Below, piece by piece: positions 45,715-62,998 of a stretch of 64,000 nt of DNA (the first letter of the stretch is position 1; each line of letters opens with the position of its first letter). The position numbers were made by a program, and so were the translations under genes. The stretch spans positions 2,714-66,713 of the forward strand of contig NZ_JAJFUC010000089.1 in assembly GCF_021372645.1 (NCBI RefSeq), written 5' to 3'. Source of the DNA: Clostridium sp. (GTDB lineage: Bacteria > Bacillota > Clostridia > Clostridiales > Clostridiaceae). A model generated the notes under the pieces. The model worked only from the letters and a program-made list of their open reading frames with translations, did not search any database and was not told the origin of the DNA.

Positions 45715-46725
45715 TTAAACAACTATACTTTTTAAAGTAGCTTCTATATCTCTTTCTATATCTACAAAAGCATTGTTTTTTTCTCTTATAAAATGATTTA
45801 ATAAATCAATTGTTATTAAATTCATTTCATTAATATCTTTATCTGTAATTAAGTTATTATCTTTAATCTTCTTTAAATATTTATTCATATCTTTAAAAAA
45901 ATTAAATATATAATCCTTAATTAAATCTTTTGATTCTATTTCTTGGCTTATACTTAATAATCTTTTTTTAAGATCTATTACTTTAATTGGAAATAATAAA
46001 CACATATTTTTTTCAAATAACTGTTTAAAATCACATTTCCAACTCTTAATCACATTAACTTTACAATCTATATTTTGCCCCTCAGAATTTGATTTAAATT
46101 CATATACATCAGGGACTTGAATATTTGAATTTATCATTATTAAATATCTTGTATAGTTCTCATTTATGCTTTCACTTACATTATCTTTTTCATATTCTCT
46201 TCTTTTCTTTGTAAGACTTATTATATTATCATAATTATTATTGAAATCTATCTTGCTCATCATTATTGCTATATTTTCATCATCTTTAGTTTGAAACTGT
46301 ATTTGATATTCAAACTTTCTATATTCATCTTCTGCCAAAATTCTAACATTATAGTTAGCACTTCTTGAAATTAGCACTTGATTACTGTTTATAATATCTT
46401 TATTTTTAATATATTCAATTCTAGTATTTTCACTTAAGTCATCATTATATATTGAATTAAAAAGCTCTATTAATAAAATCTTATTATCTAATGAAAAAAT
46501 TCTTTTCAGAATTCCATTTAATCTTTTTTCACATTTAGTATAATTGCTTTTTCCACAATTTAAATCCATAAAATTTTCTTCATTCTGAAAAAATTCAAAT
46601 TTCTCTTTAAATTTAAGATATAAGCTATTAGAGTCTTCTTGTACACTTTTATTTTTATTGAATTCTAATGATTTATCTTTGTTTCTTCCTTTTCTTACTT
46701 CACTTAGTAAAACCAATTTATTCAT
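45715..46725 (-). CDS. Rpn/PD-(D/E)XK-like protein with degenerate catalytic motif (tentative)
   Basis: LLIELFNSIY, YQIQFQTKDD..IAIMM, VPDVYE and KVNVIK.W...LFPIKVIDLKK resemble clostridial Rpn-like proteins as recalled. Start placed at ATG 46725 with GAGGTG. Confidence 0.5.
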   Translation of the reverse strand: MNKLVLLSEVRKGRNKDKSLEFNKNKSVQEDSNSLYLKFKEKFEFFQNEENFMDLNCGKSNYTKCEKRLNGILKRIFSLDNKILLIELFNSIYNDDLSENTRIEYIKNKDIINSNQVLISRSANYNVRILAEDEYRKFEYQIQFQTKDDENIAIMMSKIDFNNNYDNIISLTKKRREYEKDNVSESINENYTRYLIMINSNIQVPDVYEFKSNSEGQNIDCKVNVIKSWKCDFKQLFEKNMCLLFPIKVIDLKKRLLSISQEIESKDLIKDYIFNFFKDMNKYLKKIKDNNLITDKDINEMNLITIDLLNHFIREKNNAFVDIERDIEATLKSIVV

Positions 46726-47000
46726 ACTGTATTCCACCTCATAATGGATTATTACCATAATATGCTTATACTATACTAATATTGAATTAATTTCAATGGA
46801 ATATAATTGAATTACGACATGAAATTACATATAATGGAATTGTGATTTTTTGTTTTTTGAACATCTTATATTAAATTAATAAAATATAACCTTTGTTTAA
46901 AATAATCTCAACATTTTTTCGTGTTAATTTTTGCATATTATAAAAATTTATTTTTAAAGGTATTACTTATAGGTTTAAAAACATATCATTGTTTACAGAC

Positions 47001-50369: not shown

Positions 50370-50638
50370 TTTTTCCTCCTACAATCATTAATATACAAAT
50401 TATACACTAATTTTATCAAACTTTTAAATTATTTTATATATATTCTTTATAATTAAAGTAAAAAATTTGTAATTAATTTTTCATAAGTAGAAAACCCAAA
50501 ATCAAGAATAAAAAAAATACTATAATTTCCTTGTATACATAAAAAAAATGTTAAATAAGCTATTCCAAAATAACTTATCTAACACTTCTATTTTAATTTA
50601 CTTATATTCAAAAAATAACAAGTCAGTATACCTTAATA

Positions 50639-51613
50639 TTATTCAACTTCTAGAATATTGAGTACATCTTCTGGCTCTTCTTCTGGTGCTTTTGCTACAA
50701 AATAAACCCCACCTATAACCATTATACTACATACAATTGTTTTTAAACTTATTTCACGTCCATTGATTAATATATCAAATACAATTGACCAAACAACATA
50801 TGTTATATTTAATCCCATAGCTCTTGTTGCACCAATTTTATAAATTGCATTGTAATAAAATAAATATGATATTGTTCCTGCAAGTGCAGTTGCTCCAATC
50901 CACCAAGCTACGCTTGTCCTTAGAATTTCAAAACTAAGTCCTATTCCACCAACAACTGGAATTATTAGAACTCCATATACAATTGCTGATGTTAATTGTC
51001 TTATTTGAAGTGCAAATTCTGAAGATACTTCATCACCCTTCATTCCATATGCACATATAACACATTCACTACCCCATCCAAATACACACAATAAGGCACA
51101 TAAAAATCCTACAATACTAACTCCAGCTTCACCTGGTGTATATAAAATTATTGATACACCTATAATTGCAAATATTAATCCAAGCCATGCTTTTTTGTTC
51201 ATCTTTTCTTTTAATATAAAATAAGCTAAAATTGCTCCAACTGCTGGGTATAATGATGAAATTATGGCAGTATAAGATGGTCCAATAAGTTTAACTGCAA
51301 CTAAATATCCAGTCATCCCAACAGGGCCTCCCATAAGTGCTGCTAAAACAACGAATAATGCACTCTTAGTTTTCATGGATTTAAATAAATTTCCCAATTG
51401 TTTTTTAAACGCAAGATATATGAATGTCCATACAGTTGAAAAGGCATCATGTAAAAATGCTGTTATGAACGGTGCTAAAAATACTGCACCCTCTGGTAAA
51501 AATGGACTCATCCCAAGTATTATTGCCATTAAAACTGTGTCTAATCCCCAAGTTATTGCTGAAGTTATTCCACTCATTACACCTACTTTGTAATTACCTT
51601 TATTATTTTCCAT
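50639..51613 (-). CDS. licB: Choline permease LicB (DMT/EamA family)
   Basis: AFLHDAFS, ALMGGPVGM...VKLIG.S....SLYPA, GWGSECV motifs as in pneumococcal LicB (recalled); located in the lic locus. Confidence 0.82.
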   Translation of the reverse strand: MENNKGNYKVGVMSGITSAITWGLDTVLMAIILGMSPFLPEGAVFLAPFITAFLHDAFSTVWTFIYLAFKKQLGNLFKSMKTKSALFVVLAALMGGPVGMTGYLVAVKLIGPSYTAIISSLYPAVGAILAYFILKEKMNKKAWLGLIFAIIGVSIILYTPGEAGVSIVGFLCALLCVFGWGSECVICAYGMKGDEVSSEFALQIRQLTSAIVYGVLIIPVVGGIGLSFEILRTSVAWWIGATALAGTISYLFYYNAIYKIGATRAMGLNITYVVWSIVFDILINGREISLKTIVCSIMVIGGVYFVAKAPEEEPEDVLNILEVE

Positions 51614-51849
51614 TAAAAATCCCCCTTAAATATAATTACTTATTCTTATTGTAGATACACAAAAACACAAATCTATTTATTAATTGAAGTAACTCTCATG
51701 TAATCTAAGTTTTAATACTTTTCCAATTTTTATTGTGAATTATCTTTTCATAATTGCATAACTAAAACTTTTAGTCTTGGTTATCTATATTTTATACATA
51801 AAAATATTCGCTATACGTATATTGGGCATAACTTTGTTCATTTTTTTCC

Positions 51850-51887
51850 AGTTCATTTTGTGAACAATATTATATTATCATTGTTCA
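51850..51887. promoter_or_regulatory. Candidate operator complex and -10 box upstream of licB
   Basis: AGTTCATTTTGTGAACA (51850-51866; reverse TGTTCACAAAATGAACT). TGAACAAT-N11-ATTGTTCA (51861-51887) straddles a minus-strand TATAAT (51869-51874). No good -35. Confidence 0.6.
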
Positions 51888-51947
51888 ACGTTCATAACAA
51901 TATGTTCAGATAAAAAAATGATAATTTATTTGAAAATAAAAAATAAA

Positions 51948-51984
51948 CTATCTAAAATAGAAATATAATTCCTATTTTAGATAG
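51948..51984 (-). terminator. Probable terminator after the small choline-binding protein gene
   Basis: 13-bp inverted repeat CTATCTAAAATAG / CTATTTTAGATAG. Confidence 0.7.
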
Positions 51985-52091
51985 CCATAAATGCCAAGTT
52001 CTAAATTGCACTTATACTTTTATGAATATATATACTAAAAATGCATAACCTTGATTTCTATAGATTACATAAATAAGTGCTATTTTTAAAT

Positions 52092-52577
52092 TTAACCCCT
52101 TGCCATAGCTCCATCTTGATTAAAGTAATACCAACTATATCCATCATAATAAGAGCTTGTTCTCATAGTTCCATCATTATTAAAATAGTACCAATTATAT
52201 CCATCGTAATACCAGCCTGTCCTCATAGTCCCATCATTATTAAAATAATAGTAATAACCATTTTCGTAGTACCAGCCTGTTGTCATAACTCCATCAGTGT
52301 TAAAGTGATACCAACTATATCCAATGTTGTACCAACCTGTTCTCATGTATCCATAGTCATTGTAGTAATACCAATTGTATCCATCACTATACCAACCTGG
52401 ACCTTGATATCCATAATCATATCCATATCCTTGGTCATATCCATAATCATATCCATATCCTTGGTCATATCCATAGTCATAAGCATTTGCTTTTACAGAA
52501 GAAGATGCTCCTACTGCAAATATACTTGCAGCCATCATAATAGATATTATTGATTTTTTTAAAAACTTACTTTTCAT
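52092..52577 (-). CDS. Small secreted choline-binding-repeat protein with no catalytic domain
   Basis: Signal peptide ending ANA, YDYGYDQGYG repeats, five 20-aa TGWY..G..WYYFN.DG.M repeats. Confidence 0.88.
   Translation of the reverse strand: MKSKFLKKSIISIMMAASIFAVGASSSVKANAYDYGYDQGYGYDYGYDQGYGYDYGYQGPGWYSDGYNWYYYNDYGYMRTGWYNIGYSWYHFNTDGVMTTGWYYENGYYYYFNNDGTMRTGWYYDGYNWYYFNNDGTMRTSSYYDGYSWYYFNQDGAMARG
52407..52475. repeat. Perfect 30-bp intragenic tandem repeat (2.3 copies) encoding YDYGYDQGYG
   Basis: ATATCCATAATCATATCCATATCCTTGGTC repeated with period 30. Confidence 0.9.
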
Positions 52578-52927
52578 TAATATAAATTCCCCTTTAATTA
52601 TTATTTTTGTATGGTTTAGCTACAACATTCCCCTAAAATGTTTAATTATATAGCTATAGTCCTAGATTTTCTCATTGAAACACTATATTTTAAATGAGAT
52701 CATCTATATAATAAAAGTTAAACTTTTATGCTTCAATTATATCATGATATTTTTTATTTTTATATACCCATTTCGCTCATATTTTTATCTATATGACATA
52801 TTTTTCATATTTAATTCCATAAAACTTACGCTATTTTATATTATGATTAAATTTTCATTTGTAAATAACATCTTGTGTGGGGAGAATTATATAAAAGGCT
52901 TTCATTATAAAATCATTATATATTAGT

Positions 52928-54409
52928 TTAACTTGCCTTTTTAATCTTAAGCTTTATAAGTACTTTATAAAATAATTCAAAAAACACTGCATCTTTAGTA
53001 ATTACAAGTATACCCAAATAAACTAATCCACATATTAAAACTTCTATTACACAGGCAATAAGTATATTGGGTATAACAAATTTTATTCCAAATGTTATTG
53101 GAATAAATATTAATGAATAATAAAAATATTTAATGTTCTCATATGCAAATAAATGTATATCTAGTTTTATTACCTTTTTAACCATTCTATATTCTAGTGC
53201 TATTACAATTAAGTTAGCTATAAGGGTAGTTGTTATAGCACTTATCATATTAAAATTTCCTGTGAGAGTTAATGTTACATTGAATATTAAATTAATTACT
53301 CCACCAATCAAAACTAATATGGCATCCTGTTTTTCTTTTCCATGAAGATATATCATTTGATTAGCTATTACACCTTCAACCCCAATGCTTAACATATATA
53401 TTGAAAATACTATCATTACTGGAACTGCTGCTAAGAAAGCTGGTCCTCCAAAAATATATATTGCTTCTTTAGAAAGGCATAAGAGACCTATAGATGCTGG
53501 AAACAATAATAAGAAATATATCTTTATTACCTTTTTCAATAATATCAAATATTCTTCTTCAGAATTATTTCCCAAATAATTAGAAAGTCTTGGCATAGTA
53601 ACTTGAATTATTGTTAAGAGTAACGTATTTACTATTAGCATTATTCTTTGAGCCATATAATAATATCCAACAGCTGTAGTCCCACCAATACTATCCTTTA
53701 ACATTATCTTATCAAGCTGAGTATATAAAACTCCTGTGTTAGAAAGAATTACAACATAAAGCATTGGCTTAACATGTCTAAGAAATTGTAAATTAGAAAA
53801 ATCAAACTTTAATTTCTTCTTTACATATATAAAACTTATTATATTATTTATAAAATTAAAGCCTATAACTAAATATAAATAAAATAGGAAGTCTTTTTTT
53901 TCTCTCACAAATAATAAAATCAGTGCAGAATATATTATTCTAATCACCATGGTTTTAATAGCAATAAAATCGTAATTTTCTAATGCTTCATTAACCCATT
54001 CCACATAAAAAAGATTGAACACCAAATTAAAGCCCATAATTATGCATGTATAAAAATATGGTTCATTCTTATAAAAGATAGCCACAAATATCATATATGC
54101 AGCTGATGCAACAATATTAGTAAGACTTGTAAAAAGAAATAAACTTGTGAAAGTTTGCCTAAGTTTAGTTTTATCATCACGAACTTTACTTATTTCTCTT
54201 AAACCATATTGATAAATTCCAAAACTTCCAAATATCAAAAAGTATGCAGTTAAGGAATCTCCATATCCCATGTATCCATATAATTCGTCTCCAAAAGATC
54301 TACTAACTAAAGGCATTACTAATATAGGTAAAATTATATTAAATAGATTGAGCATTGCTTTGAAAATTGCATTTTTTGAAATTGATTTAGCCATTTGTTT
54401 AGCCTCCAT
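52928..54409 (-). CDS. tacF: TacF-like MOP/Wzx teichoic acid flippase
   Basis: KSISKNA..K..LNLFNIILP, YG..GYGDS...F..FG.YQYGLREISKVRDD resemble pneumococcal TacF (recalled); many TM segments; lic context. Confidence 0.75.
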   Translation of the reverse strand: MEAKQMAKSISKNAIFKAMLNLFNIILPILVMPLVSRSFGDELYGYMGYGDSLTAYFLIFGSFGIYQYGLREISKVRDDKTKLRQTFTSLFLFTSLTNIVASAAYMIFVAIFYKNEPYFYTCIIMGFNLVFNLFYVEWVNEALENYDFIAIKTMVIRIIYSALILLFVREKKDFLFYLYLVIGFNFINNIISFIYVKKKLKFDFSNLQFLRHVKPMLYVVILSNTGVLYTQLDKIMLKDSIGGTTAVGYYYMAQRIMLIVNTLLLTIIQVTMPRLSNYLGNNSEEEYLILLKKVIKIYFLLLFPASIGLLCLSKEAIYIFGGPAFLAAVPVMIVFSIYMLSIGVEGVIANQMIYLHGKEKQDAILVLIGGVINLIFNVTLTLTGNFNMISAITTTLIANLIVIALEYRMVKKVIKLDIHLFAYENIKYFYYSLIFIPITFGIKFVIPNILIACVIEVLICGLVYLGILVITKDAVFFELFYKVLIKLKIKKAS

Positions 54410-54469
54410 AAATATAAGGATATTTTAAATTACCTATCCTCTTATCTTTTTTACTTTTTTACTTTTTCA

Positions 54470-54498
54470 ATTGTACATTCTACGCTATTTATTGTCAA
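54470..54498 (-). promoter_or_regulatory. SigA promoter of tacF
   Basis: TTGACA-N17-TACAAT. Confidence 0.75.
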
Positions 54499-54562
54499 TT
54501 TGCATTTTAATTTTGTATATTTTTATAAATTTACATAACTATGGTTAAAACAAATACATATA

Positions 54563-54609
54563 GAAATAAAGGTCATGCTTTTGTGTAAAAAATGCATGGC
54601 CTTTATTTC
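54563..54609 (-). terminator. Terminator after licC
   Basis: GAAATAAAGGTCATGC / GCATGGCCTTTATTTC inverted repeat with one mismatch. Confidence 0.8.
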
Positions 54610-54620
54610 AACAGGTATGT

Positions 54621-55316
54621 CTATAATTTAAGTGTTCTTTTTAGGTATTCTAAATCTTCAAGTGAGTCTATTTCAAATATGTCGTTTGACTCTATTTTTT
54701 TAATATATACATTCATATCTTTAAGATTATCTACAGCAATATTATCCCAATATAGATCCCTAAAATATCCTTTGTTTACTACTTCTTCAACCTTTTTTGC
54801 TATAAGTCTCCCATCTTTCTCTGTCCAAAAAGATGCTCCAGACATTATGTAGTTAGGTTTATCTCCTTCTTTTCCAATATCAACACCAAATATTTTTTGA
54901 TCATTATCATATTTTAAAATCCACTCGCCTACTAAGTTTTCCTTGCAAGCTGAATAATATAATGATGTATTTGGTTTAGTCTTTGGTAAAAAGTTTCTTG
55001 TAATATAATTATCTGCATCTATAACAAATGCATCTTCAAGATATTCTCTAACTAAATACATAGTATAGATATTATTATAAATATCATATTTGTCATTAAT
55101 TACTTTGATTAAATTATATTTTTTAACCAGGTCATCAAATTTTTCATGTAAATAACCTGTTAATACAATAATTTCATCAATTCCAACTTCTTTTAAATTC
55201 ATTATTTGTCTTTCAAGCAGAGACATTCCATTAACCTCTATTAAAGACTTTGGAATCGTTAAAGTTAAAGGTCTAAGTCTAGTACCCATGCCTGCTGCCA
55301 TTAAAATTGCTCTCAT
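54621..55316 (-). CDS. licC: CTP:phosphocholine cytidylyltransferase LicC
   Basis: ILMAAGMGTRLRPLT...PK, NDKY..YNN, VIDADNY, EW, SG.SFW, LYWDN, EIDS. Confidence 0.93.
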   Translation of the reverse strand: MRAILMAAGMGTRLRPLTLTIPKSLIEVNGMSLLERQIMNLKEVGIDEIIVLTGYLHEKFDDLVKKYNLIKVINDKYDIYNNIYTMYLVREYLEDAFVIDADNYITRNFLPKTKPNTSLYYSACKENLVGEWILKYDNDQKIFGVDIGKEGDKPNYIMSGASFWTEKDGRLIAKKVEEVVNKGYFRDLYWDNIAVDNLKDMNVYIKKIESNDIFEIDSLEDLEYLKRTLKL

Positions 55317-55331
55317 TTATTACCTTCTCCT

Positions 55332-57182
55332 CTAAAGCTTCTTTAAATATTCTTTAGCTCTATTATATCTATCTATTCCGTAAGTACCAAAATCATCGCC
55401 TTCTGCTTCTTTAATCAATGTCCAAACTGACCATAAGGTATCTTGGCATATTTGATGGATTAATAGCCTTCTTCTTGAATCTTTATCTGCTTCTTTTCCA
55501 TTAAAGTACAATCTAAACATTAGTTCAATATCATCTTCTGAAAATTCATTTTCTAAAGAAAGTGCTGCTAAATCCCACATATCATCATTGATTCCACTAT
55601 ATTCCCAATCAATTAAGTAAATTCTACCTTCTGTATCCTTAACTAAATTTTCAGAAACTAAATCATTATGTGATGGTACAAATACTCGTTTGCAAACTTT
55701 TAATTCTTCTTCAAGAGCCATTACTTTTTCTCTTACTTCATCATAGTCCTCAAAAAAGTCTCCTCTATTTTTTCTTAAAATATCCTCATATTTTTCAAGT
55801 TCTCTAAACATATTAAACTCATTATCCATATGGAAATCAGTTGACTCATGTAAGTTTCTTAAAATGCCAGTAACTTGTTTCAGGTTTTCTTCTTTTTTTA
55901 TACTTCTATGAGTTAAAGTTTCTGCATTTTCTATATATTTAGATATTTTAACTCCAGTTTCGAGACTAAAGTAAGGAACCTCTACATTATATCCTTTTTC
56001 TGAAGCAATTGCAGAATTAAACATCTCTGTATTTCTATTGATCATTTGCTCTGTACCAGTTCCTGCAACTCTTAAAATATATCTACTACCTTTAACACAT
56101 ATTCTGTAATTTTTATTTGTCATTCCACCTGCTGGCTCAACTTCTGTAATATCATCATCTTTGACTTTTAAGGACTCACGAATAATATTCTTTATATTAT
56201 TTATTTCATAACTAAGTTCTCTTCTTCTTATGGTTGGATAAAGATAATTTTTAATCTTTTCATATTCTTTATTACTATCTGCATCTCCCCAAGCAAGGTC
56301 ATCTATCTTAACAAATCCAATGTTATAATTTCTAGCTACATCTAACAGTACATACTCATAATTTAAATAAGGATTAACGTTTCCTTTAAATTCTTGAAGC
56401 ATCATTGTGTATAACTTATAAGAAATCTTAGTAAGTCCAATCATTTCTCCATCAATTCTATTAAATTGGTGAATATCCTTAGACATCTTAAATAGGTGGT
56501 TATCTCTTATTTCAACAAAAGCTTCATCTCCAGAACCACTTTCATTAGTGAAAAGTATACAATCACGATTTCCACTTTCCGCCAATTCCTTGATAGCCTT
56601 TCTTTCAAAAATCAAGTCATTTTCAACAAGTAAAAAGTCATCATCAATATAATCTTTAGCTAAAGATAAAGAATGCATAGTTCCAGTCCATTTATAAGTA
56701 TCATTCTTTACTAAAATTATATTTTGGCTATTTTTGAAACACTCTTCATAATACTGACTTTCATAACCTGTTATAATAACAATCTTAGTTATTCCATTTT
56801 CTTTTAAAATATTTAAAGTTCTATTAATTAACTTAAAATCTTCAATTTCAAGCATCCCTACCGGTTTTCCAAATTCTTCTGATTTGCCTGCTGCAAGTAT
56901 TACTGCTTGTTTTACTATCTTCTTTTCTTCTTCATGAAGTTTTAATCTAGTACTTTTTGCAGATGCAATATTTTCCTCTAAAAATTTCATTCCTTTTTCT
57001 GTTACCTTATATAAGGTTCCTCTATTATTAGTAATTCTATCTATGAATCCATCAATAGTAAACTCCTTCAAGACAGCATTAACCTTTCCAAGAGACATAT
57101 TTGTCTTTTTAGCTAATTCCCTTTGATTAATGTTAAAATTATCATTTAATGCTTTTAAAATTTCTAATTTATCCTCTAACAT
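55332..57182 (-). CDS. licA: Fusion: winged HTH + degenerate cytidylyltransferase-like domain + choline kinase LicA
   Basis: NQRELAKKTNMSLGKVN (wHTH); VILAAGKSEEFGKPV (altered NTase signature); GGMTNKNY, HNDLVSEN, LIDWEYSG (intact choline kinase motifs). Confidence 0.88.
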   Translation of the reverse strand: MLEDKLEILKALNDNFNINQRELAKKTNMSLGKVNAVLKEFTIDGFIDRITNNRGTLYKVTEKGMKFLEENIASAKSTRLKLHEEEKKIVKQAVILAAGKSEEFGKPVGMLEIEDFKLINRTLNILKENGITKIVIITGYESQYYEECFKNSQNIILVKNDTYKWTGTMHSLSLAKDYIDDDFLLVENDLIFERKAIKELAESGNRDCILFTNESGSGDEAFVEIRDNHLFKMSKDIHQFNRIDGEMIGLTKISYKLYTMMLQEFKGNVNPYLNYEYVLLDVARNYNIGFVKIDDLAWGDADSNKEYEKIKNYLYPTIRRRELSYEINNIKNIIRESLKVKDDDITEVEPAGGMTNKNYRICVKGSRYILRVAGTGTEQMINRNTEMFNSAIASEKGYNVEVPYFSLETGVKISKYIENAETLTHRSIKKEENLKQVTGILRNLHESTDFHMDNEFNMFRELEKYEDILRKNRGDFFEDYDEVREKVMALEEELKVCKRVFVPSHNDLVSENLVKDTEGRIYLIDWEYSGINDDMWDLAALSLENEFSEDDIELMFRLYFNGKEADKDSRRRLLIHQICQDTLWSVWTLIKEAEGDDFGTYGIDRYNRAKEYLKKL

Positions 57183-57272
57183 AATAGCCCTCCATCATTT
57201 TTATTCACAATAACAAATTAACAATCCACAGTTTTTCAGATATAATTATTAATAAATTTCTACATATTCTAT

Positions 57273-57289
57273 TGTTCGGAATTTGAACT
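57273..57289. promoter_or_regulatory. Candidate operator TGTTCGGAATTTGAACT at the predicted transcription start of the wHTH-licA fusion
   Basis: Palindromic GTTC-N7-GAAC; 13/17 identical to the licB upstream site; 7 nt downstream of the -10 box. Confidence 0.62.
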
Positions 57290-57296
57290 ACAATTT

Positions 57297-57325
57297 ATTA
57301 TATTACCTAAAATTCTGGATGTCAA
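57297..57325 (-). promoter_or_regulatory. Perfect-consensus SigA promoter of the wHTH-licA / licC operon
   Basis: TTGACA (57320-57325)-N17-TATAAT (57297-57302). Confidence 0.88.
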
Positions 57326-57349
57326 TTGCATTTTCCAATTAATATACCT

Positions 57350-57565
57350 TTAGGATACCCTATGAGCAATTGAGGATGAGTCCCAAAGCAAAAGTTCTGT
57401 CAACCAAATACAAAAGGCTCACAAAAATAAAGTTCGAGAGCCCATAAAAGAAACCCAGCTCACAGACTTTCGCTGTGGAAGTTCAAGTATCCAATTATAA
57501 AATTGAGACTTTCACTTCAAATTTTGGTTCTCCCTTTTGGACTCTCACTTTTGGAGCATCACTTA
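57350..57565. repeat. GC-enriched, structured non-coding element (possible dispersed repeat, MITE or ncRNA)
   Basis: 77 of 200 bases are G+C in 57361-57560 (hand count), in otherwise very AT-rich intergenic DNA. Nested inverted repeats and a CACAGC-GAAA-G(T)CTGTG hairpin; boundaries approximate. Confidence 0.5.
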
Positions 57566-57620
57566 TTCTTAATATTTTTTTAATTTTATAGGAATTTGTT
57601 CCCTCATTGTAAATTATACT

Positions 57621-60602
57621 TTAATATATACTTCCATCTTGTGCAAAGTTATATACTTTATCGTCAACAAACATACTTTGATTTGTTACCAGTTCTCCTT
57701 CTGGAGTGAAATAGTACCATTTTCCATTTAAGTATAACCATGCTTTATGCATTACACCATTCAATCCCAAATAGTACCACTTATTATTTTGATTCATCCA
57801 ACCAGTCTTTAATTGCCCAGTAGTCGGGTCTAAATAATATGATTTACCTCCTACATCTTTTCTCCAACCGCTTGTTTTATATCCTTTTGAATTTAAGTAA
57901 TACCAATTACCTTTAGTATTTATCCATTGGTCTTTAACTTGTCTACCTTTATTGTTAAAGTAAATGTCTTTTCCGTTTACTTTACCCCATTCTTCATACT
58001 TGCTTGTATCTACCCAACAATCGTCAATATCATCATAAAATACATCATTTTCATTTGTATTATTATCATTATCTAACGGACTATCTGTTCTATAAATTTC
58101 AAAACTATAAGTTTTGCTATTACTTCCATCTTCTGATATTACTACTATCTCCATGTCAGTTTCTTGTGACCCATTAAGATCTACTGTTATTGGAGTACCA
58201 CTGAATTTTTCTCCATTTACAGTAACCTTAGATTTAGAATTTTCTGGAACTGGTGAAACCTTAAGTGTATTTATAGCTTGATCTACACGTATTTTATTTG
58301 GATCTGCTTCAGAATCAAAAGTAAAATCTCCATTATCTGTTATCACATCTTTTAACAGTGCACTAGCACTTCTTGTGTCATTGTTAACAGTAATATTATA
58401 TGTTTTACTAGTAATTCCATCTTGCGCTGTAATAACTATTTTAATATTAGTTTGCCCAGTACTATTTAAAGGAAAATCAAAACCCTCTCCCGAAGTTAAA
58501 CCATATTCATCTCCAGTTTCAACAATAGTTGCTGAAATATCCTTAACATTACTCTTTGTTGTTACAGTGATTTTTGATGATGTATCAGCCTTAGGAACTG
58601 TAACAGTATAATTAGCTTTATCACTTGAAAATCCACTAGTTCCATCAGTAGCTTTTATATTTCCATTGCCAGCTATTATATTACTTAATGAAGCATCACT
58701 AGAAGTTGCAACACTACCACTATCTGGTGTGCCTGCATTCTTTGCTATATAAAATGTGTATTTTTGACCTATAGGATATGGGGTTATGCTCTCTACTTCA
58801 GATGTAATAGTACCATCTGTATCCTTTTTATATACAATTTGATCATAATAAGCTTGCAGTAATATTTTTTTATAGTTAGTTATATCAATATTAGCTGTAG
58901 CATCTTTACCTAAATCAGTAATTTCTGTTACATTATCACTTTGTACACTAGTGCCACCCCAAGCTTTTATATATTCTCTTCTATTATTATCTATATCATA
59001 TGTCACTGGCTTATCCAGAGTAACTGATACATTATTACTTCCATCTTGCTTAAAATATAAATCATAGGTACGCCTATTGGGATCAAAGTCTATTCCATCA
59101 GATGTAGTTCTACCTGGTTGAGTTAAAATTGAATCAGGGAATAGAAAATTTACTATTGAATCACTACTACCGATCACATTAACCTTTAATTTATATATTG
59201 CTAAAGGCACTGCTCCTGTTGCATTTCCATCTTTACCTGGATATACCTCCAGCCATATTTCATTATTAGTACTTCCTTTAGCAAAGTTTACATATTGTTT
59301 CCCATTTATGAGCTTGGATCCTTCAATTCCTCCACCGCTATCATAGTGGTTTGTTATTTTGTATGCAGTCTCACTTGCTTGTCTTCCAATAATAGGCTGC
59401 ATGTTTATCATTCCAGCTCTCTTATCTAGTGTTATTGTTCCATTATAAGTTATTACATTATTATCATATGTTACATCAAATTTTTTATCAATATATGCTT
59501 CAACAGTACTATCTGCATCATAGTTTAACTTTGTTATTCCCGGATTTCTTAAAGTATAATCATTTGAAGATGATAAAGTCGTATATTTAAGTTGTATAGC
59601 ATACGTCTTAACAACATTTGTCTGATTATCACGTATCTTAGCTACAATCAAATCCGATGACCCTAAATTTGTTAAATAACCAGATATAGAGTTGTTTGAA
59701 GCATCTATTCCTATATTACTGGTATCATCAACTCCATTTTTTATCACTTTAGTATCACCTATATTTATGCCGTTAAATATCATTGTATATTTTAGTGTTT
59801 GAATTGCATCAGATACATTAAAATTATATCTAAGAGGACATATTGGATCAAATTCTTGTGATTTTGAAAATAAAAAAGGAACTTTGTTGTCTTTAGAATC
59901 TTTAGTTGCATTATAGACAGCAATAGTGTCACCAGCATAAGCATCAAAAACCATCGGACTTATTTTTCCTTGAACAAATCCATTTGCATGTTGAATAATT
60001 ATTTCCTGGGTAGTTGCAGAAGAAGGGAAATAATTTACTACTTCAGGTTGTAAATCATCTACTATTGTAGTCTTTCCAGTAGCATCAGTAACTGTCTTTC
60101 CTTTATTAAATATTGTTGTCTCCTTTATTTGATATTCAACCTTATTAACACCAAAAGGCAATGATGTTATTGTTGCACCAATTTTCTTATTACCACTATT
60201 ATCAGTATATAGTATATCACCATCACTGATTGAACATCCAATCTCAGCTAATTTTGCATTGTTAGCACTTAAATCTACTCCATCTAGTTTAATCCCATCA
60301 ATTGCTTTGATTATAACTTCTTGAGCCATTACCCCTGTTTGTCCAATACTTATATTATTAATATTATCTATTATTTTATCATCAACAGATAATGTAAAGT
60401 TTTCATATGGTTGTTGCGTTATATATTCTCCATTGGTAATAGTAACATTATCTCCAGTTAGTGTAGGTTTTCCACTTACTTGTATTTGTGTTGTAATGGC
60501 ATTAGCAGCTTGTCCGTTTAAGCCTAATTTTATTGGCAAAAATGATATTATACTTACAAATATTACAACTAATGCTACAAATCTTTTTCCCATTCTATTC
60601 AT
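57621..60602 (-). CDS. Large surface protein with cadherin-like beta-sandwich domains and C-terminal choline-binding repeats
   Basis: Signal peptide; SSDASLSNI...F......YTVTVP and ALLKDV...FTF cadherin-like modules; 5-6 W..YY repeats. Start placed at ATG 60602 with AGGAGG. Confidence 0.85.
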   Translation of the reverse strand: MNRMGKRFVALVVIFVSIISFLPIKLGLNGQAANAITTQIQVSGKPTLTGDNVTITNGEYITQQPYENFTLSVDDKIIDNINNISIGQTGVMAQEVIIKAIDGIKLDGVDLSANNAKLAEIGCSISDGDILYTDNSGNKKIGATITSLPFGVNKVEYQIKETTIFNKGKTVTDATGKTTIVDDLQPEVVNYFPSSATTQEIIIQHANGFVQGKISPMVFDAYAGDTIAVYNATKDSKDNKVPFLFSKSQEFDPICPLRYNFNVSDAIQTLKYTMIFNGINIGDTKVIKNGVDDTSNIGIDASNNSISGYLTNLGSSDLIVAKIRDNQTNVVKTYAIQLKYTTLSSSNDYTLRNPGITKLNYDADSTVEAYIDKKFDVTYDNNVITYNGTITLDKRAGMINMQPIIGRQASETAYKITNHYDSGGGIEGSKLINGKQYVNFAKGSTNNEIWLEVYPGKDGNATGAVPLAIYKLKVNVIGSSDSIVNFLFPDSILTQPGRTTSDGIDFDPNRRTYDLYFKQDGSNNVSVTLDKPVTYDIDNNRREYIKAWGGTSVQSDNVTEITDLGKDATANIDITNYKKILLQAYYDQIVYKKDTDGTITSEVESITPYPIGQKYTFYIAKNAGTPDSGSVATSSDASLSNIIAGNGNIKATDGTSGFSSDKANYTVTVPKADTSSKITVTTKSNVKDISATIVETGDEYGLTSGEGFDFPLNSTGQTNIKIVITAQDGITSKTYNITVNNDTRSASALLKDVITDNGDFTFDSEADPNKIRVDQAINTLKVSPVPENSKSKVTVNGEKFSGTPITVDLNGSQETDMEIVVISEDGSNSKTYSFEIYRTDSPLDNDNNTNENDVFYDDIDDCWVDTSKYEEWGKVNGKDIYFNNKGRQVKDQWINTKGNWYYLNSKGYKTSGWRKDVGGKSYYLDPTTGQLKTGWMNQNNKWYYLGLNGVMHKAWLYLNGKWYYFTPEGELVTNQSMFVDDKVYNFAQDGSIY

Positions 60603-60858
60603 TATTGTCACCCTCCTAAATTGCATGTTTAATTTTAAAACTTAACTGTAGTAATCGTTCGTTTCATTATATTTATTTTATCATATTAATGACTAATTTA
60701 AATATGACATATTATATATATCGAGCCATTTTATCTTATCTTTAGACGTTTAAACACATTCCATAAAGTTATTATATGTACTTCCAAATTTATATTTATT
60801 CATATGAAAGAAAAGAAAATACCTCCTTATTCTTAGCTTGGAATTTAAGTGCAAAAAA

Positions 60859-60897
60859 CCTTCCATAATATAATACATAGACTATTATTATGGAAGG
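60859..60897 (-). terminator. Terminator after the bifunctional autolysin
   Basis: CCTTCCATAATA / TATTATGGAAGG inverted repeat flanked by A/T tracts. Confidence 0.8.
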
Positions 60898-60928
60898 CCT
60901 TTTTATTCTATATTTTTGCTTTAGTTAA

Positions 60929-62998
60929 TTATATTGCTCCTGCAATTGCATCTGCAACTGCAGATGCTTCTATATCTTGATAATATGAATCTGCACACTT
61001 TTGAGCTTCACCTGGATTTGTTATAAATCCAAATTCAATTAATACTGATGGCATAGTCGTATTTCTAAGAACAAATAAGTTACCATCTTTTGCTCCTCTA
61101 TTTATTGCCCCAGTACTATTTGTAATAGATGATACAATGGATGATGCGAGATTCATACTTTTTGAAAGTCGGCTATCACTATATGCTCCACCAAAGCTAT
61201 CATCTTGTGCCCTTGAGCTATAATAAACTTCTACACCAGTTGCTGCTTCTGATGCTGAATTATGATGTAAACTTACGAATAAATCAGCACCAGCATTATT
61301 GGCAATATTTACTCTGTTGGTAAGACTTTCAGTTACATCTGCAGTTTCTCTATCAGATGCATTCCTAGTCATAATTACTTTATACCCTTGCGCTTCAAGT
61401 TTTGCCTTTAACTTAACTGCAATTTGCATGTTTAAGTCTCTTTCTACATATGTAATACCATTACTAGTTGCATAAGCACCATCATCTCCACCAAAGTTAT
61501 GACCTGGATCTATGACTATTACTTTACCAGAGGTGCTAGTTACAGTTTTATCTCCTCGTTTTCCATCAGGACCTATTTTCCAGCCATTTACAACTGTACC
61601 CTTAGCCATAATGCCTGAGCCCGGCTTAAAATAATAAGTATTGCCTCCATCTGTTATCCACCCTGTTGCCATACTACCACTGCTATTTAAGTAATAAGTA
61701 TTCCCTTCAAGATTAAGAAAACCTGTTGCCATCACTCCATTGGAATGTAAATAATACCAACTTCCATTTGGTTTAATCCAACCTGTTAGCATATTTCCAC
61801 CGGTATTAAAATAATACCACTGTCCACTAATTTGAAACCAACCTATTCTCATAGCTCCACTTATATCTAAGAAATATTTACTACCATCAATTAGCTTAAA
61901 TCCAGTTACCATGCTTCCATCGCCTTGAATGTAATACCACTTGCTACTATCTTTTAACCAACCAAGTTGCATTGCTCCACTTGATTTAAGATAATACCAC
62001 TTACCAGCATCTTTTAACCAACCCTTTGCCATAACGCCATCACTATATAAGTAATACCAATCACTGTCTGGTTTAATCCATCCTGTTGCTTTACTACCAT
62101 TTGATTTATAATAATACCATTGTCCACCCTCTAATTTCCATCCAATTGATGATGAAATATTCGTACTATTATCTGTTGTTGTTTTTATTGGCTCAGTTAC
62201 TTGTACTCCTGTTGGAGCTGTTGTGTTTGTTTGGTTCTTATCTGTTACTGACGTTGAACCTGTAGTTGTTGTGTTTGTACTTGAATTTGACCCCGTATTT
62301 GTTGTTGTGTTTGTGTTTGTGCTTGAATTTGTTGCTTCAGAAGTTTTACCAGTATTATCAGATACTTTAGAAGCATCAGTTTCAGTTTTTGGCTCAGACA
62401 CAATTCCTGCTGATATTAACAAATCATTATATGATTTATTAATTTCTTCACCATAGGTAAGACTTGGAGCCCACTTTCCACCTAAGTCATTTACTGTTAC
62501 TGCGTTACCTTTAATGGTAACAAAATGTCTTGGATCATATGTATTGCTCCTTGGATACCCAGTAGCACCTGCATAAAGTGCTAAATGATCTAGATGAGCT
62601 TGTACACCTTCATCCCATGTATTAAATCTTTGGTGAGCCTTTGGATCAGTATCAGCTCCACCTACAACTGTCTTCATTCCACATGGATTTTTATAGCTTT
62701 CATCTAAAACTCCACCAAAATTACCATACCCTGTTTCTTTAGCAGCTTGTATATATGCAATAGCTGGATTAACATTTCCATGTTCCGGTGCATATTTCCA
62801 ATACAATTCAGCTAATCCAATGAAAGTATCAGTTGCACCTTTAGATTTAGCCCATTGTTCAGCCTGTTTTGCTGTCACTTTTGTTTCTGATATTATTTTG
62901 ATATCAGTAATAGCTGCTTGTACATTAGTTGTTGGTATTAATACTAAAACTATTGCAAAAGCAAATAAAAATGTAGTCAATCTCTTAATAGCCTTCAA
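60929..62998 (-). CDS. Bifunctional autolysin: glucosaminidase-like domain + T/S/N linker + 9 choline-binding repeats + Amidase_3
   Basis: QAAKETGYG...NPCGMK; nine 20-aa repeats; DPGH, ERDLN, SLHHNS, LIEFGF Zn-amidase motifs; TTG start with GGAGG. Confidence 0.9.
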   Translation of the reverse strand: MKAIKRLTTFLFAFAIVLVLIPTTNVQAAITDIKIISETKVTAKQAEQWAKSKGATDTFIGLAELYWKYAPEHGNVNPAIAYIQAAKETGYGNFGGVLDESYKNPCGMKTVVGGADTDPKAHQRFNTWDEGVQAHLDHLALYAGATGYPRSNTYDPRHFVTIKGNAVTVNDLGGKWAPSLTYGEEINKSYNDLLISAGIVSEPKTETDASKVSDNTGKTSEATNSSTNTNTTTNTGSNSSTNTTTTGSTSVTDKNQTNTTAPTGVQVTEPIKTTTDNSTNISSSIGWKLEGGQWYYYKSNGSKATGWIKPDSDWYYLYSDGVMAKGWLKDAGKWYYLKSSGAMQLGWLKDSSKWYYIQGDGSMVTGFKLIDGSKYFLDISGAMRIGWFQISGQWYYFNTGGNMLTGWIKPNGSWYYLHSNGVMATGFLNLEGNTYYLNSSGSMATGWITDGGNTYYFKPGSGIMAKGTVVNGWKIGPDGKRGDKTVTSTSGKVIVIDPGHNFGGDDGAYATSNGITYVERDLNMQIAVKLKAKLEAQGYKVIMTRNASDRETADVTESLTNRVNIANNAGADLFVSLHHNSASEAATGVEVYYSSRAQDDSFGGAYSDSRLSKSMNLASSIVSSITNSTGAINRGAKDGNLFVLRNTTMPSVLIEFGFITNPGEAQKCADSYYQDIEASAVADAIAGAI

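What the first reader, a model, noticed from the sequence alone, without database searches (positions are those of the whole stretch)
55332..57182. Candidate choline-sensing trigger enzyme: DNA-binding domain + likely inactive cytidylyltransferase + active choline kinase in one polypeptide
Seen: an N-terminal winged HTH (NQRELAKKTNMSLGKVN), a LicC-like domain, and a LicA kinase with intact GGMTN, HxDL..N and IDWEY motifs. In the middle domain the signature GxG(T/S)RL...PK is replaced by GKSEEF..KPV (about 56858-56910), losing the Arg and Lys. The stand-alone LicC encoded 15 nt downstream keeps GMGTRL...PK. Established: these basic residues bind the CTP phosphates in this nucleotidyltransferase fold, and LicA/LicC make CDP-choline. 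Inference: the middle domain is a ligand sensor (phosphocholine or CDP-choline) coupling pathway flux to transcription through the HTH. I know of no characterised regulator of lic genes with this architecture but cannot verify that.
Basis: partly seen in the sequence, partly recalled or inferred. Interest (0 to 1): 0.82.

Follow-up and report, generated by a model that had tools for sequence, protein, structure and literature searches.

The report
Choline-pathway repressor fused to choline kinase
This Clostridium gene encodes one protein that joins a DNA-binding domain, a catalytically dead cytidylyltransferase-like domain and a working choline kinase, and comparative genomics indicates it is the previously unrecognised repressor of the cell-wall phosphocholine (lic) genes in many Firmicutes.

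Summary
ORF 55332..57182 (-) encodes 616 aa: a MarR-like winged HTH (1-77), a PntC/LicC-fold nucleotidyltransferase domain (90-322) and a LicA-type choline kinase (333-612).

In the middle domain the GxG(T/S)R...PK signature reads GKSEEF..PV. An intact licC starts 15 nt downstream.

The loss is conserved across a whole clade. In 54 representatives at 50% identity, the Arg position is Asp or Glu in 32 and the Lys position is Val, Ala or Ile in 38. The metal-binding and substrate-side pocket residues are kept, and the domain is as conserved as the kinase.

A 15-bp palindrome, GTTCA-N5-YGAAC, sits just after the -10 box of the gene's promoter in 76 of 81 loci, from Clostridium to the Bacillus cereus group. 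It recurs in front of licB where licB is a separate unit, including window 51851-51865. It is absent from four loci whose homolog lacks the HTH.

Relatives with the same HTH but an intact NTase carry the same half-sites 24 nt apart.

Best reading: an autoregulatory enzyme-repressor, NadR- or RbkR-like in logic. The dead NTase domain is the dimerisation and sensing module. Its ligand is probably CDP-choline or phosphocholine, but this is untested.

I found no published description in the papers searched.

The parts
57320..57325 (-). -35 hexamer TTGACA of the operon promoter
   Evidence: 12/12 consensus promoter TTGACA-17-TATAAT. Conserved in 24 Clostridium orthologous upstream regions that are otherwise unalignable.
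57297..57302 (-). -10 hexamer TATAAT of the operon promoter
   Evidence: It ends 8 nt before the palindrome, so the predicted transcription start is near 57290.
57274..57288 (-). Operator O1: palindrome GTTCAAATTCCGAAC (GTTCA-N5-YGAAC), overlapping the predicted transcription start
   Evidence: One of only 2 GTTC-N7-GAAC sites in the window, against 0.27 expected. Invariant in 24 Clostridium loci. The relaxed form RTTCA-N5-YGAAY is present within 260 nt upstream of the gene in 76 of 81 loci.
55332..57182 (-). Gene for the 616-aa wHTH / pseudo-nucleotidyltransferase / choline kinase protein
   Evidence: The AF2 model has mean pLDDT 90.2.
56952..57182 (-). Residues 1-77: MarR-like winged helix-turn-helix (H2-14, H20-27, recognition helix H31-44, wing E47-60, helix 62-77)
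   Evidence: Pfam HTH_24 4.8e-8. AF2 models. Foldseek top 50 hits are MarR-family regulators and the AspA-DNA complex. Most conserved positions are Q20, R21, S30, G32 and N35.
56217..56915 (-). Residues 90-322: PntC/LicC-fold nucleotidyltransferase domain, predicted catalytically dead
   Evidence: 6PD1 3.5e-30. Foldseek rmsd 1.8-1.9 A over about 236 columns. Residue mapping.
56859..56888 (-). Residues 99-108, GKSEEFGKPV: degenerate signature loop. E103 replaces the PPi-site Arg and V108 replaces the catalytic Lys.
   Evidence: Alignments. Clade statistics. Experimental role of these residues in PMC6697681.
55347..56186 (-). Residues 333-612: LicA-type choline kinase with intact catalytic motifs
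   Evidence: 4R77 6.7e-61. Foldseek 4R7B, TM 0.89 on the target. H505, D507, N512, D525, E527 and Y528 are nearly invariant.
54621..55316 (-). licC: canonical CTP:phosphocholine cytidylyltransferase (GMGTRL...PK), co-transcribed with the gene above
   Evidence: 1JYK 2e-58 over full length. A single 2579-nt RNA-derived contig spans 54612-57190.
54565..54605 (-). Probable terminator hairpin ending the two-gene operon
   Evidence: Inverted repeat AAAGGCCATGC...GCATGACCTTT followed by a T-rich run, read from the sequence. RNA contigs end at 54602-54620. The simple terminator scan did not call it.
51851..51865 (-). Operator O2: palindrome GTTCACAAAATGAAC, 3 nt after a TATAAT (51869-51874) and upstream of licB
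   Evidence: The same arrangement sits in front of the split-off licB in about 15 related Clostridium loci.
51883..51907 (-). Three further conserved GAAC half-sites (51904-51907, 51890-51893, 51883-51886) over the -35 region of the licB promoter
   Evidence: The block GAAC-N10-GAAC-N3-GAAC-N17-GTTCA-N5-TGAAC is conserved in 16 loci while the flanks diverge. Its function is inferred.
50639..51613 (-). licB-like EamA choline transporter, second predicted regulon member
   Evidence: Pfam EamA 3.3e-24. Orthologs lie inside the operon in most other genera.

Best explanation
The protein is a one-component, autoregulatory enzyme-repressor of the phosphocholine (lic) pathway.

Proposed mechanism:
- As a dimer, its N-terminal MarR-like winged HTH binds the 15-bp palindrome GTTCA-N5-YGAAC.
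- That palindrome overlaps the transcription start of its own operon (gene-licC) and of the licB transporter gene, so binding blocks transcription.
- The C-terminal domain is a working LicA choline kinase that makes phosphocholine.
- The separate LicC makes CDP-choline.
- The middle domain is a dead cytidylyltransferase. It has lost the pyrophosphate-binding Arg loop and the catalytic Lys. It keeps the nucleoside-binding, metal-binding and phospho-amine pocket residues.
- This dead domain sets the dimer geometry. It most likely binds a pathway metabolite, CDP-choline or phosphocholine, and so changes DNA affinity.

Shown by computation: the architecture, conserved degeneracy under purifying selection, the conserved promoter-proximal palindrome, and its co-occurrence with the HTH.

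Inferred: DNA binding by this protein, repression, ligand binding, ligand identity and the direction of control.
For: Architecture and folds.

Dead NTase domain:
- In 54 degenerate representatives the R15-equivalent is D (20), E (12) or N (4), and R in only 3. The K25-equivalent is V (22), A (8) or I (8), and K in only 1. All 13 intact relatives have both R and K.
- R15A and K25A reduce Tde-PntC activity to below 10% of wild type. K-to-A abolishes activity in FrbH and YgbP (PMC6697681).
- No position in the loop carries a conserved basic residue.
- An intact licC is in the same operon in nearly all loci. It is even fused in front of the dead domain in P0133.

Pocket kept and domain under selection:
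- E104-equivalent is E in 42 of 54, D106 is D in 47, K153 is K in 48, Y195 is Y in 44 and E196 is E in 47.
- The middle domain is as conserved as the kinase: mean top-residue frequency is 0.54 for both, against 0.44 for the HTH.

Operator:
- It is the only conserved block, together with -35 and -10, in 24 diverged upstream regions.
- The window has 2 sites against 0.27 expected, both at lic promoters.
- 54 of 75 exact sites in 1.01 Mb of loci lie within 250 nt upstream of the gene. The relaxed form is present in 76 of 81 loci. The -10 box ends 1-8 nt before it in 62 of 75.
- A second copy sits before licB wherever licB is a separate transcription unit.

Link between HTH and operator:
- HTH-less homolog loci L057, L084 and L085/L086 have no site.
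- Stand-alone HTH+dead-NTase genes in L083 and L089 have the exact site after their -10.
- Three loci whose proteins have the same HTH fused to an intact NTase carry four GTTCA-N24-TGAAC sites, all at promoters.

Expression: the gene and licC are co-transcribed in environmental RNA.
Against: - No experiment exists on any member, as far as the searchable literature shows.
- A trans-acting regulator encoded elsewhere could bind the palindrome.
- One full-length locus (L051, where the gene is third in a larger operon) and two short-form loci (L046, L082) lack the palindrome.
- The dead domain also occurs in HTH-less kinases (8-9 clusters). Its primary role may therefore be in the enzyme (allostery, scaffolding) and not in transcription.
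- The same HTH is fused to intact NTases, so sensing does not require degeneracy.
- The loop often has non-conserved Lys or Arg at positions 100-102 (fractions 0.31-0.44), so residual chemistry cannot be excluded formally.
- The pocket residues are PntC-type (E/E/Y) and not LicC-type (D/D/W). In PntC this goes with a smaller pocket, so the ligand might be smaller than phosphocholine.
Confidence: 0.68

Rival explanations
1. The protein is a DNA-binding autorepressor and kinase, but the dead NTase domain is only a dimerisation scaffold or spacer and binds no metabolite. Any signal reaches the HTH from the kinase domain's substrate state, or the repression is constitutive or titrated.
For: - Operator half-site spacing tracks the NTase type: N5 with the degenerate domain and N24 with the intact one. 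The domain therefore sets dimer geometry.
- The domain occurs without the HTH.
Against: Residues that line the substrate and metal pocket in PntC (E104, D106, K153, Y195, E196) are kept in 42-48 of 54 representatives. They have no obvious structural role. The nucleoside-binding AAG and TGTMxSL motifs are invariant.
Confidence: 0.17
2. The dead domain's main job is allosteric control of the enzymes and not of transcription. For example, it could mediate feedback inhibition of the fused kinase or of LicC by CDP-choline, as the inactive paralogue GMPPA does for GMPPB. On this view the HTH is a later add-on. This reading is not mutually exclusive with the best explanation.
For: - HTH-less dead-NTase+kinase proteins are common.
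- Paired genes occur: HTH+dead-NTase next to dead-NTase+kinase (L083), and a full-length gene next to an HTH-less paralogue (L025). These suggest dead-domain to dead-domain contacts.
- P0133 fuses LicC, the dead NTase and the kinase.
Against: - Stand-alone HTH+dead-NTase proteins have no kinase yet carry the operator (L083, L089). This shows the pair works as a regulator on its own.
- The operator evidence stands regardless.
Confidence: 0.1
3. The middle domain is still an active nucleotidyltransferase that uses other residues, so the protein is a bifunctional LicC-LicA enzyme with an N-terminal HTH.
For: - The fold, the metal-binding Asp and the K153-equivalent are retained.
- Scattered Lys or Arg occur in the loop.
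- Bifunctional NTase-kinase fusions with intact motifs exist.
Against: - Charge reversal at the Arg position and a hydrophobic residue at the Lys position across the clade.
- Mutating either residue cripples the closest enzyme.
- A separate intact licC is almost always co-encoded.
Confidence: 0.04
4. The palindrome is the site of another regulator, or an RNA hairpin in the 5' leader. On this view the N-terminal winged helix does not bind DNA and serves, for example, as a protein or RNA contact like the RIO2 kinase wHTH.
For: - Profile hits to the wHTH include RIO2 and eS10, which are non-DNA-binding.
- A palindrome can always fold as RNA.
Against: - Presence of the site tracks presence of the HTH across architectures, and the half-site is shared by two HTH classes at different spacings.
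- The window has sites only at lic promoters.
- The RNA hairpin is weak, at -2.7 and -3.2 kcal/mol with z-scores of -1.4 and -1.2. In about 19 loci, and at licB, the left half lies within 4 nt of the -10 box, so it is probably not transcribed.
- The top 50 structural matches are DNA-binding MarR or AspA proteins.
Confidence: 0.05

Closest known systems
NadR of enterobacteria (HTH + NMN adenylyltransferase + ribosylnicotinamide kinase)
   Same: The domain order and logic are the same: an N-terminal HTH repressor domain, a central nucleotidyltransferase-type domain and a C-terminal small-molecule kinase from one salvage pathway, regulating that pathway's genes. (Own knowledge; PMC7221760 and PMC12421817 were listed.)
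   Different: - There is no homology. NadR's transferase is an HxGH Rossmann-type enzyme and its kinase is a P-loop kinase. No NadR family hit appeared.
- In NadR the transferase is active. Here it is predicted dead, and a separate LicC does the chemistry.
- The pathway, operator and taxa differ.
RbkR of Archaea (wHTH + CTP-dependent riboflavin kinase)
   Same: It is a winged HTH fused to a kinase of the regulated pathway. It is autoregulated with a transporter in the regulon and was first defined by comparative genomics of operators. [quoted passage not shown] The RbkR structure 3CTA/5TRD is a weak profile hit to this wHTH.
   Different: RbkR has two domains and no pseudoenzyme domain. Its kinase fold is unrelated, and it is archaeal.
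NrtR (Nudix-related transcriptional regulators) and other pseudoenzyme-sensor regulators
   Same: An enzyme-derived domain is fused to a wHTH and senses a nucleotide metabolite of the regulated pathway. In NrtR that domain is often catalytically inactive and the metabolite is ADP-ribose. (PMC6800001 was listed; the details are own knowledge.)
   Different: The sensor fold differs (Nudix versus GlmU/RmlA-type NTase). NrtR has no fused active enzyme, and it acts in a different pathway.
Tde-PntC (6PD1/6PD2) and S. pneumoniae LicC (1JYK)
   Same: - The middle domain has the same fold: 32% identity and rmsd about 1.9 A to PntC.
- The E-x-D metal and amine motif, the K153-equivalent and the Y-E pocket motif are shared.
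   Different: The GxG(T/S)R pyrophosphate loop and the PK lysine are missing, so it is not expected to be an enzyme.
GMPPA, the inactive paralogue regulating GDP-mannose pyrophosphorylase GMPPB
   Same: It is a catalytically inactive member of the same NTase superfamily that senses the pathway's nucleotide-activated product. (Own knowledge; GMPPB structures appear among the licC hits.)
   Different: GMPPA acts allosterically on an enzyme and not on DNA. It is eukaryotic and has no HTH.
GbsR-type MarR regulators of Bacillus (choline-responsive repressors of gbsAB/opuB)
   Same: They are MarR-like wHTH repressors in Firmicutes that respond to choline availability (own knowledge).
   Different: They are small stand-alone proteins that bind choline directly. 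They control osmoprotectant synthesis and not cell-wall phosphocholine, have no enzyme domains, and were not detected as homologs here.

Membership tests
LicA-type choline kinase (Pfam PF01633; 4R77) | Full-length similarity to a characterised LicA | tested here: met
   4R77 at 6.7e-61 over residues 333-611. Foldseek 4R7B has TM 0.89 on the target.
LicA-type choline kinase (Pfam PF01633; 4R77) | Catalytic motifs: ATP loop GGxTN, Brenner motif HxDxxxxN, and choline kinase motif (I/L)DWEY | tested here: met
   GGMTN, H505, D507, N512, D525, E527 and Y528 are present and at least 90% conserved in 26 relatives.
LicA-type choline kinase (Pfam PF01633; 4R77) | Genomic association with licB and licC | tested here: met
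   The operon order is gene-(licB)-licC in nearly all of 80 loci.
Active GlmU/RmlA/LicC/PntC-type nucleotidyltransferases | Fold | tested here: met
   6PD1/6PD2 rmsd 1.8-1.9 A over about 236 columns.
Active GlmU/RmlA/LicC/PntC-type nucleotidyltransferases | GxG(T/S)R pyrophosphate-binding signature with conserved Arg | tested here: not met
   The loop is GKSEEF, with E103 at the Arg position. Across the clade this position is D or E in 32 of 54 and R in 3 of 54.
Active GlmU/RmlA/LicC/PntC-type nucleotidyltransferases | Catalytic Lys of the PK motif | tested here: not met
   V108 occupies this position. Across the clade it is V, A or I in 38 of 54 and K in 1 of 54. K-to-A abolishes or cripples related enzymes.
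Active GlmU/RmlA/LicC/PntC-type nucleotidyltransferases | Metal-binding Asp and substrate-pocket residues | tested here: met
   D189, E187, K235, Y275 and E276 are kept in 42-48 of 54 representatives.
Active GlmU/RmlA/LicC/PntC-type nucleotidyltransferases | Measured cytidylyltransferase activity | not testable with these tools
   This needs an enzyme assay.
MarR-like winged-HTH DNA-binding regulators | H1-H2-H3-wing topology with a recognition helix | tested here: met
   AF2 models with pLDDT 89-90. The Foldseek top 50 are MarR-family proteins and AspA, including DNA complexes 7EL3, 5YI3 and 5K5Q. Pfam HTH_24 is above its cut-off.
MarR-like winged-HTH DNA-binding regulators | MarR-type dimerisation helices flanking the wHTH | tested here: not met
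   Only about 84 residues precede the NTase domain. The matches cover only the wHTH core of 135-150-aa MarR proteins, with TM on the target of about 0.45-0.5. Dimerisation must come from elsewhere.
MarR-like winged-HTH DNA-binding regulators | Palindromic operator at its own promoter | tested here: met
   This is comparative evidence and not a binding assay.
Bifunctional enzyme-repressors (trigger-enzyme logic: NadR, BirA, RbkR, PutA) | DNA-binding domain and active enzyme domain of the regulated pathway in one polypeptide | tested here: met
   wHTH plus an intact LicA kinase.
Bifunctional enzyme-repressors (trigger-enzyme logic: NadR, BirA, RbkR, PutA) | DNA binding modulated by a substrate or product of the pathway | not testable with these tools
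   This needs EMSA or ITC with choline plus ATP, phosphocholine, CDP-choline and CTP.
NadR family (by homology) | Sequence homology to the NadR domains | tested here: not met
   No NadR-related Pfam or NCBIfam family appears among the hits. The resemblance is in architecture only.

The most novel reading that the evidence does not exclude
A large, uncharacterised family of pseudoenzyme-based one-component regulators controls cell-wall phosphocholine decoration across Firmicutes, including Clostridium, Peptostreptococcaceae, the Bacillus cereus group, Neobacillus and Thermoactinomyces.

On this reading a cytidylyltransferase domain lost catalysis and was repurposed as the metabolite sensor (CDP-choline or phosphocholine) and dimerisation module of a wHTH repressor fused to the pathway's kinase. 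The type of NTase domain dictates operator geometry: GTTCA half-sites are 5 nt apart with the dead domain and 24 nt apart with the intact one.
Probability: 0.5. Interest if true: 0.82.

Novelty: new variant of a known kind. Interest (0 to 1): 0.72.

Why it matters
Phosphocholine decoration of teichoic acids and polysaccharides anchors choline-binding autolysins and adhesins. It also shapes host recognition. The known controls of lic genes are phase variation (Haemophilus) or global regulators (pneumococcus).

A dedicated, pathway-encoded repressor with a defined 15-bp operator would give the first specific regulatory handle on lic operons. It would apply in solventogenic and gut clostridia and in the B. 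cereus group.

It would also add a clear case of a dead nucleotidyltransferase reused as a transcription-factor sensor, with convergent architecture to NadR. The predicted operator, regulon and candidate ligands make this directly testable with standard assays.

Tried and rejected
- Rfam scan of 50000-61000 at E up to 1 gave only a chance snoRNA hit, so there is no riboswitch or leader RNA.
- RNA-hairpin reading of the palindrome: the stems are weak and not better than shuffles, and the 5' leader is unstructured with z = +1.17.
- NCBIfam has no family at or near its cut-off for the whole protein, so no curated equivalog exists.
- Transcription-start mapping from public RNA runs failed. The expressing strains differ upstream of 57190, so contigs break there. 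Only co-transcription with licC could be read.
- The 290-nt stretch 57330-57620 upstream of the promoter was tested as a repeat or mobile element. It has no second copy in the window or in any locus.
- Covariation between the recognition region and operator bases: QR proteins go with G...C outer bases, and QK proteins (Bacillales) mostly with A/T. This follows phylogeny, so it is only suggestive.
- Known Firmicute operator types recalled from memory (LexA GAAC-N4-GTTC, Rex, ArgR, CodY, CtsR) differ in half-site orientation or spacing. They were not tested with matrices.
- Literature searches found no paper on this architecture or on a lic repressor of this type.
Full report
**1. Observation**

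The minus-strand ORF 55332..57182 encodes 616 aa.

- Pfam finds HTH_24 (6-47, 4.8e-8), NTP_transf_3 (93-210, 7.8e-10) and Choline_kinase (352-544, 1.8e-21).
- Against solved structures, residues 333-611 match pneumococcal LicA 4R77 (6.7e-61).
- Residues 90-322 match the T. denticola PntC domain of 6PD1 (3.5e-30). This is far better than LicC 1JYK (8e-7).
- The alignments pair GKSEEF with GLGTRL and PV with PK.
- The next gene, 54621..55316, starts 15 nt after the stop. It is a full-length LicC (1JYK 2e-58) with GMGTRL...PK.
- An AlphaFold2 model built on 26 relatives is confident (mean pLDDT 90.2). It shows a canonical winged helix (H2-14, H20-27, H31-44, two-strand wing 47-60), the NTase fold and the kinase fold, joined by long helices.
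- Foldseek returns LicA (TM 0.89 on the target) and PntC (rmsd 1.8-1.9 A).

The one refinement is that the middle domain belongs to the PntC-like branch of the LicC fold.

**2. Is the loss of Arg and Lys conserved, and does it matter?**

An exhaustive search of 1.84 billion representatives found 303 proteins at E up to 1e-30. I aligned the NTase domains of 67 representatives with PntC, LicC, IPCT and the window's own LicC.

Fifty-four form a degenerate clade with a short loop, AAGxxx(D/E)Fxx-P(V/A)xxL.

| PntC position | Role (PMC6697681) | Degenerate clade (54 reps) | Intact relatives (13) |
|---|---|---|---|
| R15 | PPi site | D 20, E 12, N 4, R 3 | all R |
| K25 | transition-state Lys | V 22, A 8, I 8, K 1 | all K |
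| E104 | contacts substrate amine | E 42 | not tabulated here |
| D106 | metal binding | D 47 | all D |
| K153 | guides the phosphonate | K 48 | not tabulated here |
| Y195 | pocket | Y 44 | not tabulated here |
| E196 | contacts substrate amine | E 47 | E in 12 of 13 |

The paper on the closest enzyme states that the first five residues of GXG(T/S)RX4-8PK form the pyrophosphate site. It reports that R15A, K25A and K153A leave less than 10% activity. It also reports that K-to-A abolishes activity in FrbH and YgbP (PMC6697681).

The residues on the other side of the pocket are retained, as the table shows. The AAG and TGTMxSL nucleoside-side motifs are invariant. The middle domain is as conserved as the kinase: mean top-residue frequency is 0.54 for each, against 0.44 for the HTH.

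The domain is therefore not decaying. It has lost specifically the CTP-triphosphate and transition-state side and kept the rest. This is the pattern expected for a binding module and not for an enzyme.

**3. Genomic context**

Eighty loci were recovered from reference genomes. They come from Clostridium, Romboutsia, Terrisporobacter, Paraclostridium, Caloramator, the B. cereus group, Neobacillus, Niallia, Thermoactinomyces, a Lachnospiraceae MAG, Peptostreptococcus and Abiotrophia.

- The gene almost always leads an operon of the form gene-(licB/EamA)-licC, with choline-binding-repeat proteins nearby. The pathway therefore always has its own intact cytidylyltransferase.
- One representative, P0133, even fuses an intact LicC in front of the dead domain and kinase.
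- In the window the operon is gene-licC. RNA-derived contigs from rice-paddy transcriptomes span both genes as one piece (54612-57190) and stop near the hairpin at about 54600.
- The Wzx-like flippase, a small choline-binding protein and licB follow as separate units.

**4. The operator**

Upstream of the gene there is a perfect TTGACA-17-TATAAT promoter at 57325..57297. I aligned 24 Clostridium upstream regions. Everything has diverged except the -35 box, the -10 box and, 7-9 nt later, AGTTCA-N5-YGAAC. In the window this is 57288..57274.

- GTTC-N7-GAAC occurs only twice in the 64-kb window, against 0.27 expected. The second site, 51851-51865, lies 3 nt after a TATAAT in front of licB.
- Across 1.01 Mb of loci there are 75 exact sites. 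Fifty-four of them lie within 250 nt upstream of the gene, in 53 loci.
- Most of the remaining sites sit directly in front of licB, in the species where licB has been split from the operon.
- Allowing R/Y at the outer bases, 76 of 81 loci have the site.
- TTCA and TGAA are invariant in all 75 usable sites.
- The -10 box ends 1-8 nt before the palindrome in 62 of 75 loci.
- The median distance from the palindrome to the start codon is 29 nt.

A palindrome overlapping the transcription start is the classical position for a repressor. The two half-site centres are 10 bp apart, which is one helical turn.

**5. Does this protein bind it?**

There are three independent lines of evidence.

(a) Loci whose homolog lacks the HTH have no site.
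- L057 has none in 13.6 kb.
- L085/L086 have none, and there the HTH-less gene is the first in a gene-licB-licC operon.
- L084 has none near the gene.

(b) Complete stand-alone genes for HTH+dead-NTase exist without a kinase.
- In L083 one lies directly upstream of an HTH-less dead-NTase+kinase gene and carries the exact GTTCAAAAAATGAAC after its promoter.
- In L089 one follows licD and wzx and precedes an ABC transporter. It has TTGACT-17-TACAAT, then 6 nt, then GTTCATAAAATGAAC.

(c) A second class of proteins has the same HTH signature (SQRxLA...SLGKxN) fused to an intact LicC-like NTase and a kinase. All three such loci I could fetch carry the same half-sites at a different spacing, GTTCA-N24-TGAAC. 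There are four sites, and each is at a promoter.

The HTH and the kinase are what the two classes share. The half-site goes with the HTH, and the spacing goes with the NTase type.

On its own, the N-terminal domain models at pLDDT 89. Its 50 best structural matches are MarR-family regulators and the centromere-binding AspA, including DNA complexes. It lacks the MarR dimerisation helices, so dimerisation must come from the rest of the protein.

Exceptions:
- L051 is full length but third in a larger operon, and has no site.
- The short forms in L046 and L082 have no site.

**6. Mechanism**

Shown by computation:
- the three-domain architecture;
- conserved catalytic death of the middle domain under purifying selection;
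- an intact kinase;
- a separate LicC;
- a deeply conserved promoter-proximal palindrome whose presence and geometry track the HTH and the NTase type.

Inferred: the protein dimerises through the NTase or kinase part. It binds GTTCA-N5-YGAAC and represses its own operon and licB. The dead pocket binds a pathway metabolite that alters DNA affinity.

Two observations point to CDP-choline, the end product, acting as co-repressor as NAD does for NadR. The nucleoside side and the phospho-amine side of the pocket are kept. Only the site for the beta and gamma phosphates of CTP is gone.

Phosphocholine made in cis by the fused kinase, acting as inducer, is equally compatible with the data. The direction of control cannot be decided computationally.

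The pocket residues are PntC-type (E/E/Y) and not LicC-type (D/D/W). In PntC this goes with a smaller pocket. Some relatives sit next to EutH. A smaller amine ligand therefore remains possible.

**7. Rivals**

- A scaffold-only middle domain is weakened by the conserved pocket residues.
- A primarily allosteric, GMPPA-like role is supported by HTH-less and paired forms. It is not exclusive with the best explanation, and stand-alone HTH+dead-NTase regulators argue that the pair works on DNA.
- Residual cytidylyltransferase activity is made unlikely by charge reversal at the Arg position, a hydrophobic residue at the Lys position, and the ever-present licC.
- A palindrome bound by another factor or acting as RNA is weakened by the HTH correlation, the weak hairpin (-2.7 and -3.2 kcal/mol, not better than shuffles), and left half-sites lying too close to the -10 box to be transcribed in many loci.

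**8. Comparison and novelty**

By logic the system is closest to three known types:
- NadR (HTH + nucleotidyltransferase + kinase);
- pseudoenzyme-sensor regulators such as NrtR.

It is not homologous to any of them. No NadR family hit appeared, and the RbkR wHTH is only a weak profile hit.

NCBIfam has no model that reaches its cut-off. Sources name the protein only generically: choline kinase, winged HTH regulator, or NTP transferase domain protein. Full-text searches, including a 2023 survey of Lic-1 genes, found no mention of this architecture or of such a regulator.

I class it as a new variant of a known kind (enzyme-fused repressors). It has a new sensor type and a newly defined operator and regulon. 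The literature library is incomplete, so prior description elsewhere cannot be excluded.

**9. Verdict**

Interest is 0.72. The regulator family is widespread, well defined and immediately testable, with a predicted operator. The general principle (enzyme plus HTH) is already known, and the ligand is unproven.

Noticed in passing
window 51830-51910 (minus strand); L001, L003-L006, L008, L009, L011, L016, L017, L019-L021, L024, L055: The licB promoter carries a conserved 60-nt block, GAAC-N10-GAAC-N3-GAAC-N17-GTTCA-N5-TGAAC, and often one more GAAC downstream. Half-site starts fall at 0, 14, 21 and 42. This suggests multi-site or cooperative binding at the transporter promoter.
   Followed up: partly
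L081 3956 and 7558; L087 231; L088 195: Proteins with the same wHTH fused to an intact LicC-like NTase and a kinase have GTTCA-N24-TGAAC at their promoters, where the degenerate class has the N5 palindrome. This is based on only three loci.
   Followed up: partly
L083 1404-4009; L025 6001-9446; L046 3550-4524; L089 3001-3999: Split and duplicated forms exist:
- a stand-alone wHTH+dead-NTase gene next to an HTH-less dead-NTase+kinase gene (L083);
- a full-length gene followed by an HTH-less paralogue (L025);
- short regulators next to rmlD-like (L046) or ABC-transporter genes (L089).
   Followed up: partly
HTH residue 21 versus operator outer bases, 75 loci: Proteins with Q20-R21 almost always have G...C outer bases. 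Bacillales proteins with Q-K mostly have A and/or T there. This may reflect an Arg-guanine contact, but it is confounded by phylogeny.
   Followed up: partly
window 52092-52577 (-): A small 161-aa secreted protein has a Tyr/Gly/Asp-rich repeat (YDYGYDQGYGYDYGY...) followed by choline-binding repeats. RNA contigs show an 18-nt length variant at 52417 in related strains.
   Followed up: no
window 57621-60626 (-) and 60929-62998 (-): Two large choline-binding-repeat surface proteins lie upstream of the operon. One has cadherin-like domains. The other combines glucosaminidase and Amidase_3 domains and is autolysin-like. They are likely clients of the phosphocholine decoration.
   Followed up: no
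window 47967-50369 (-): An 800-aa dCache-HAMP-PAS-PAS-GGDEF diguanylate cyclase lies immediately downstream of licB.
   Followed up: no
window 57330-57620: The roughly 290-nt stretch between the upstream surface-protein gene and the lic promoter reads as unusually G+C-rich for this genome (impression from the sequence; composition not computed). It has no counterpart in any of the 80 related loci and no second copy in the window. RNA contigs of related strains diverge from the window at 57190.
   Followed up: partly
window 45715-46758 (-): A 347-aa ORF has no Pfam match at E up to 1e-4.
   Followed up: no
L081 7624-9381 and 9368-; L083 4041-5318: EutH (ethanolamine permease family) genes follow NTase-kinase genes in some relatives. 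This hints that some family members handle ethanolamine-type amines and not choline.
   Followed up: no
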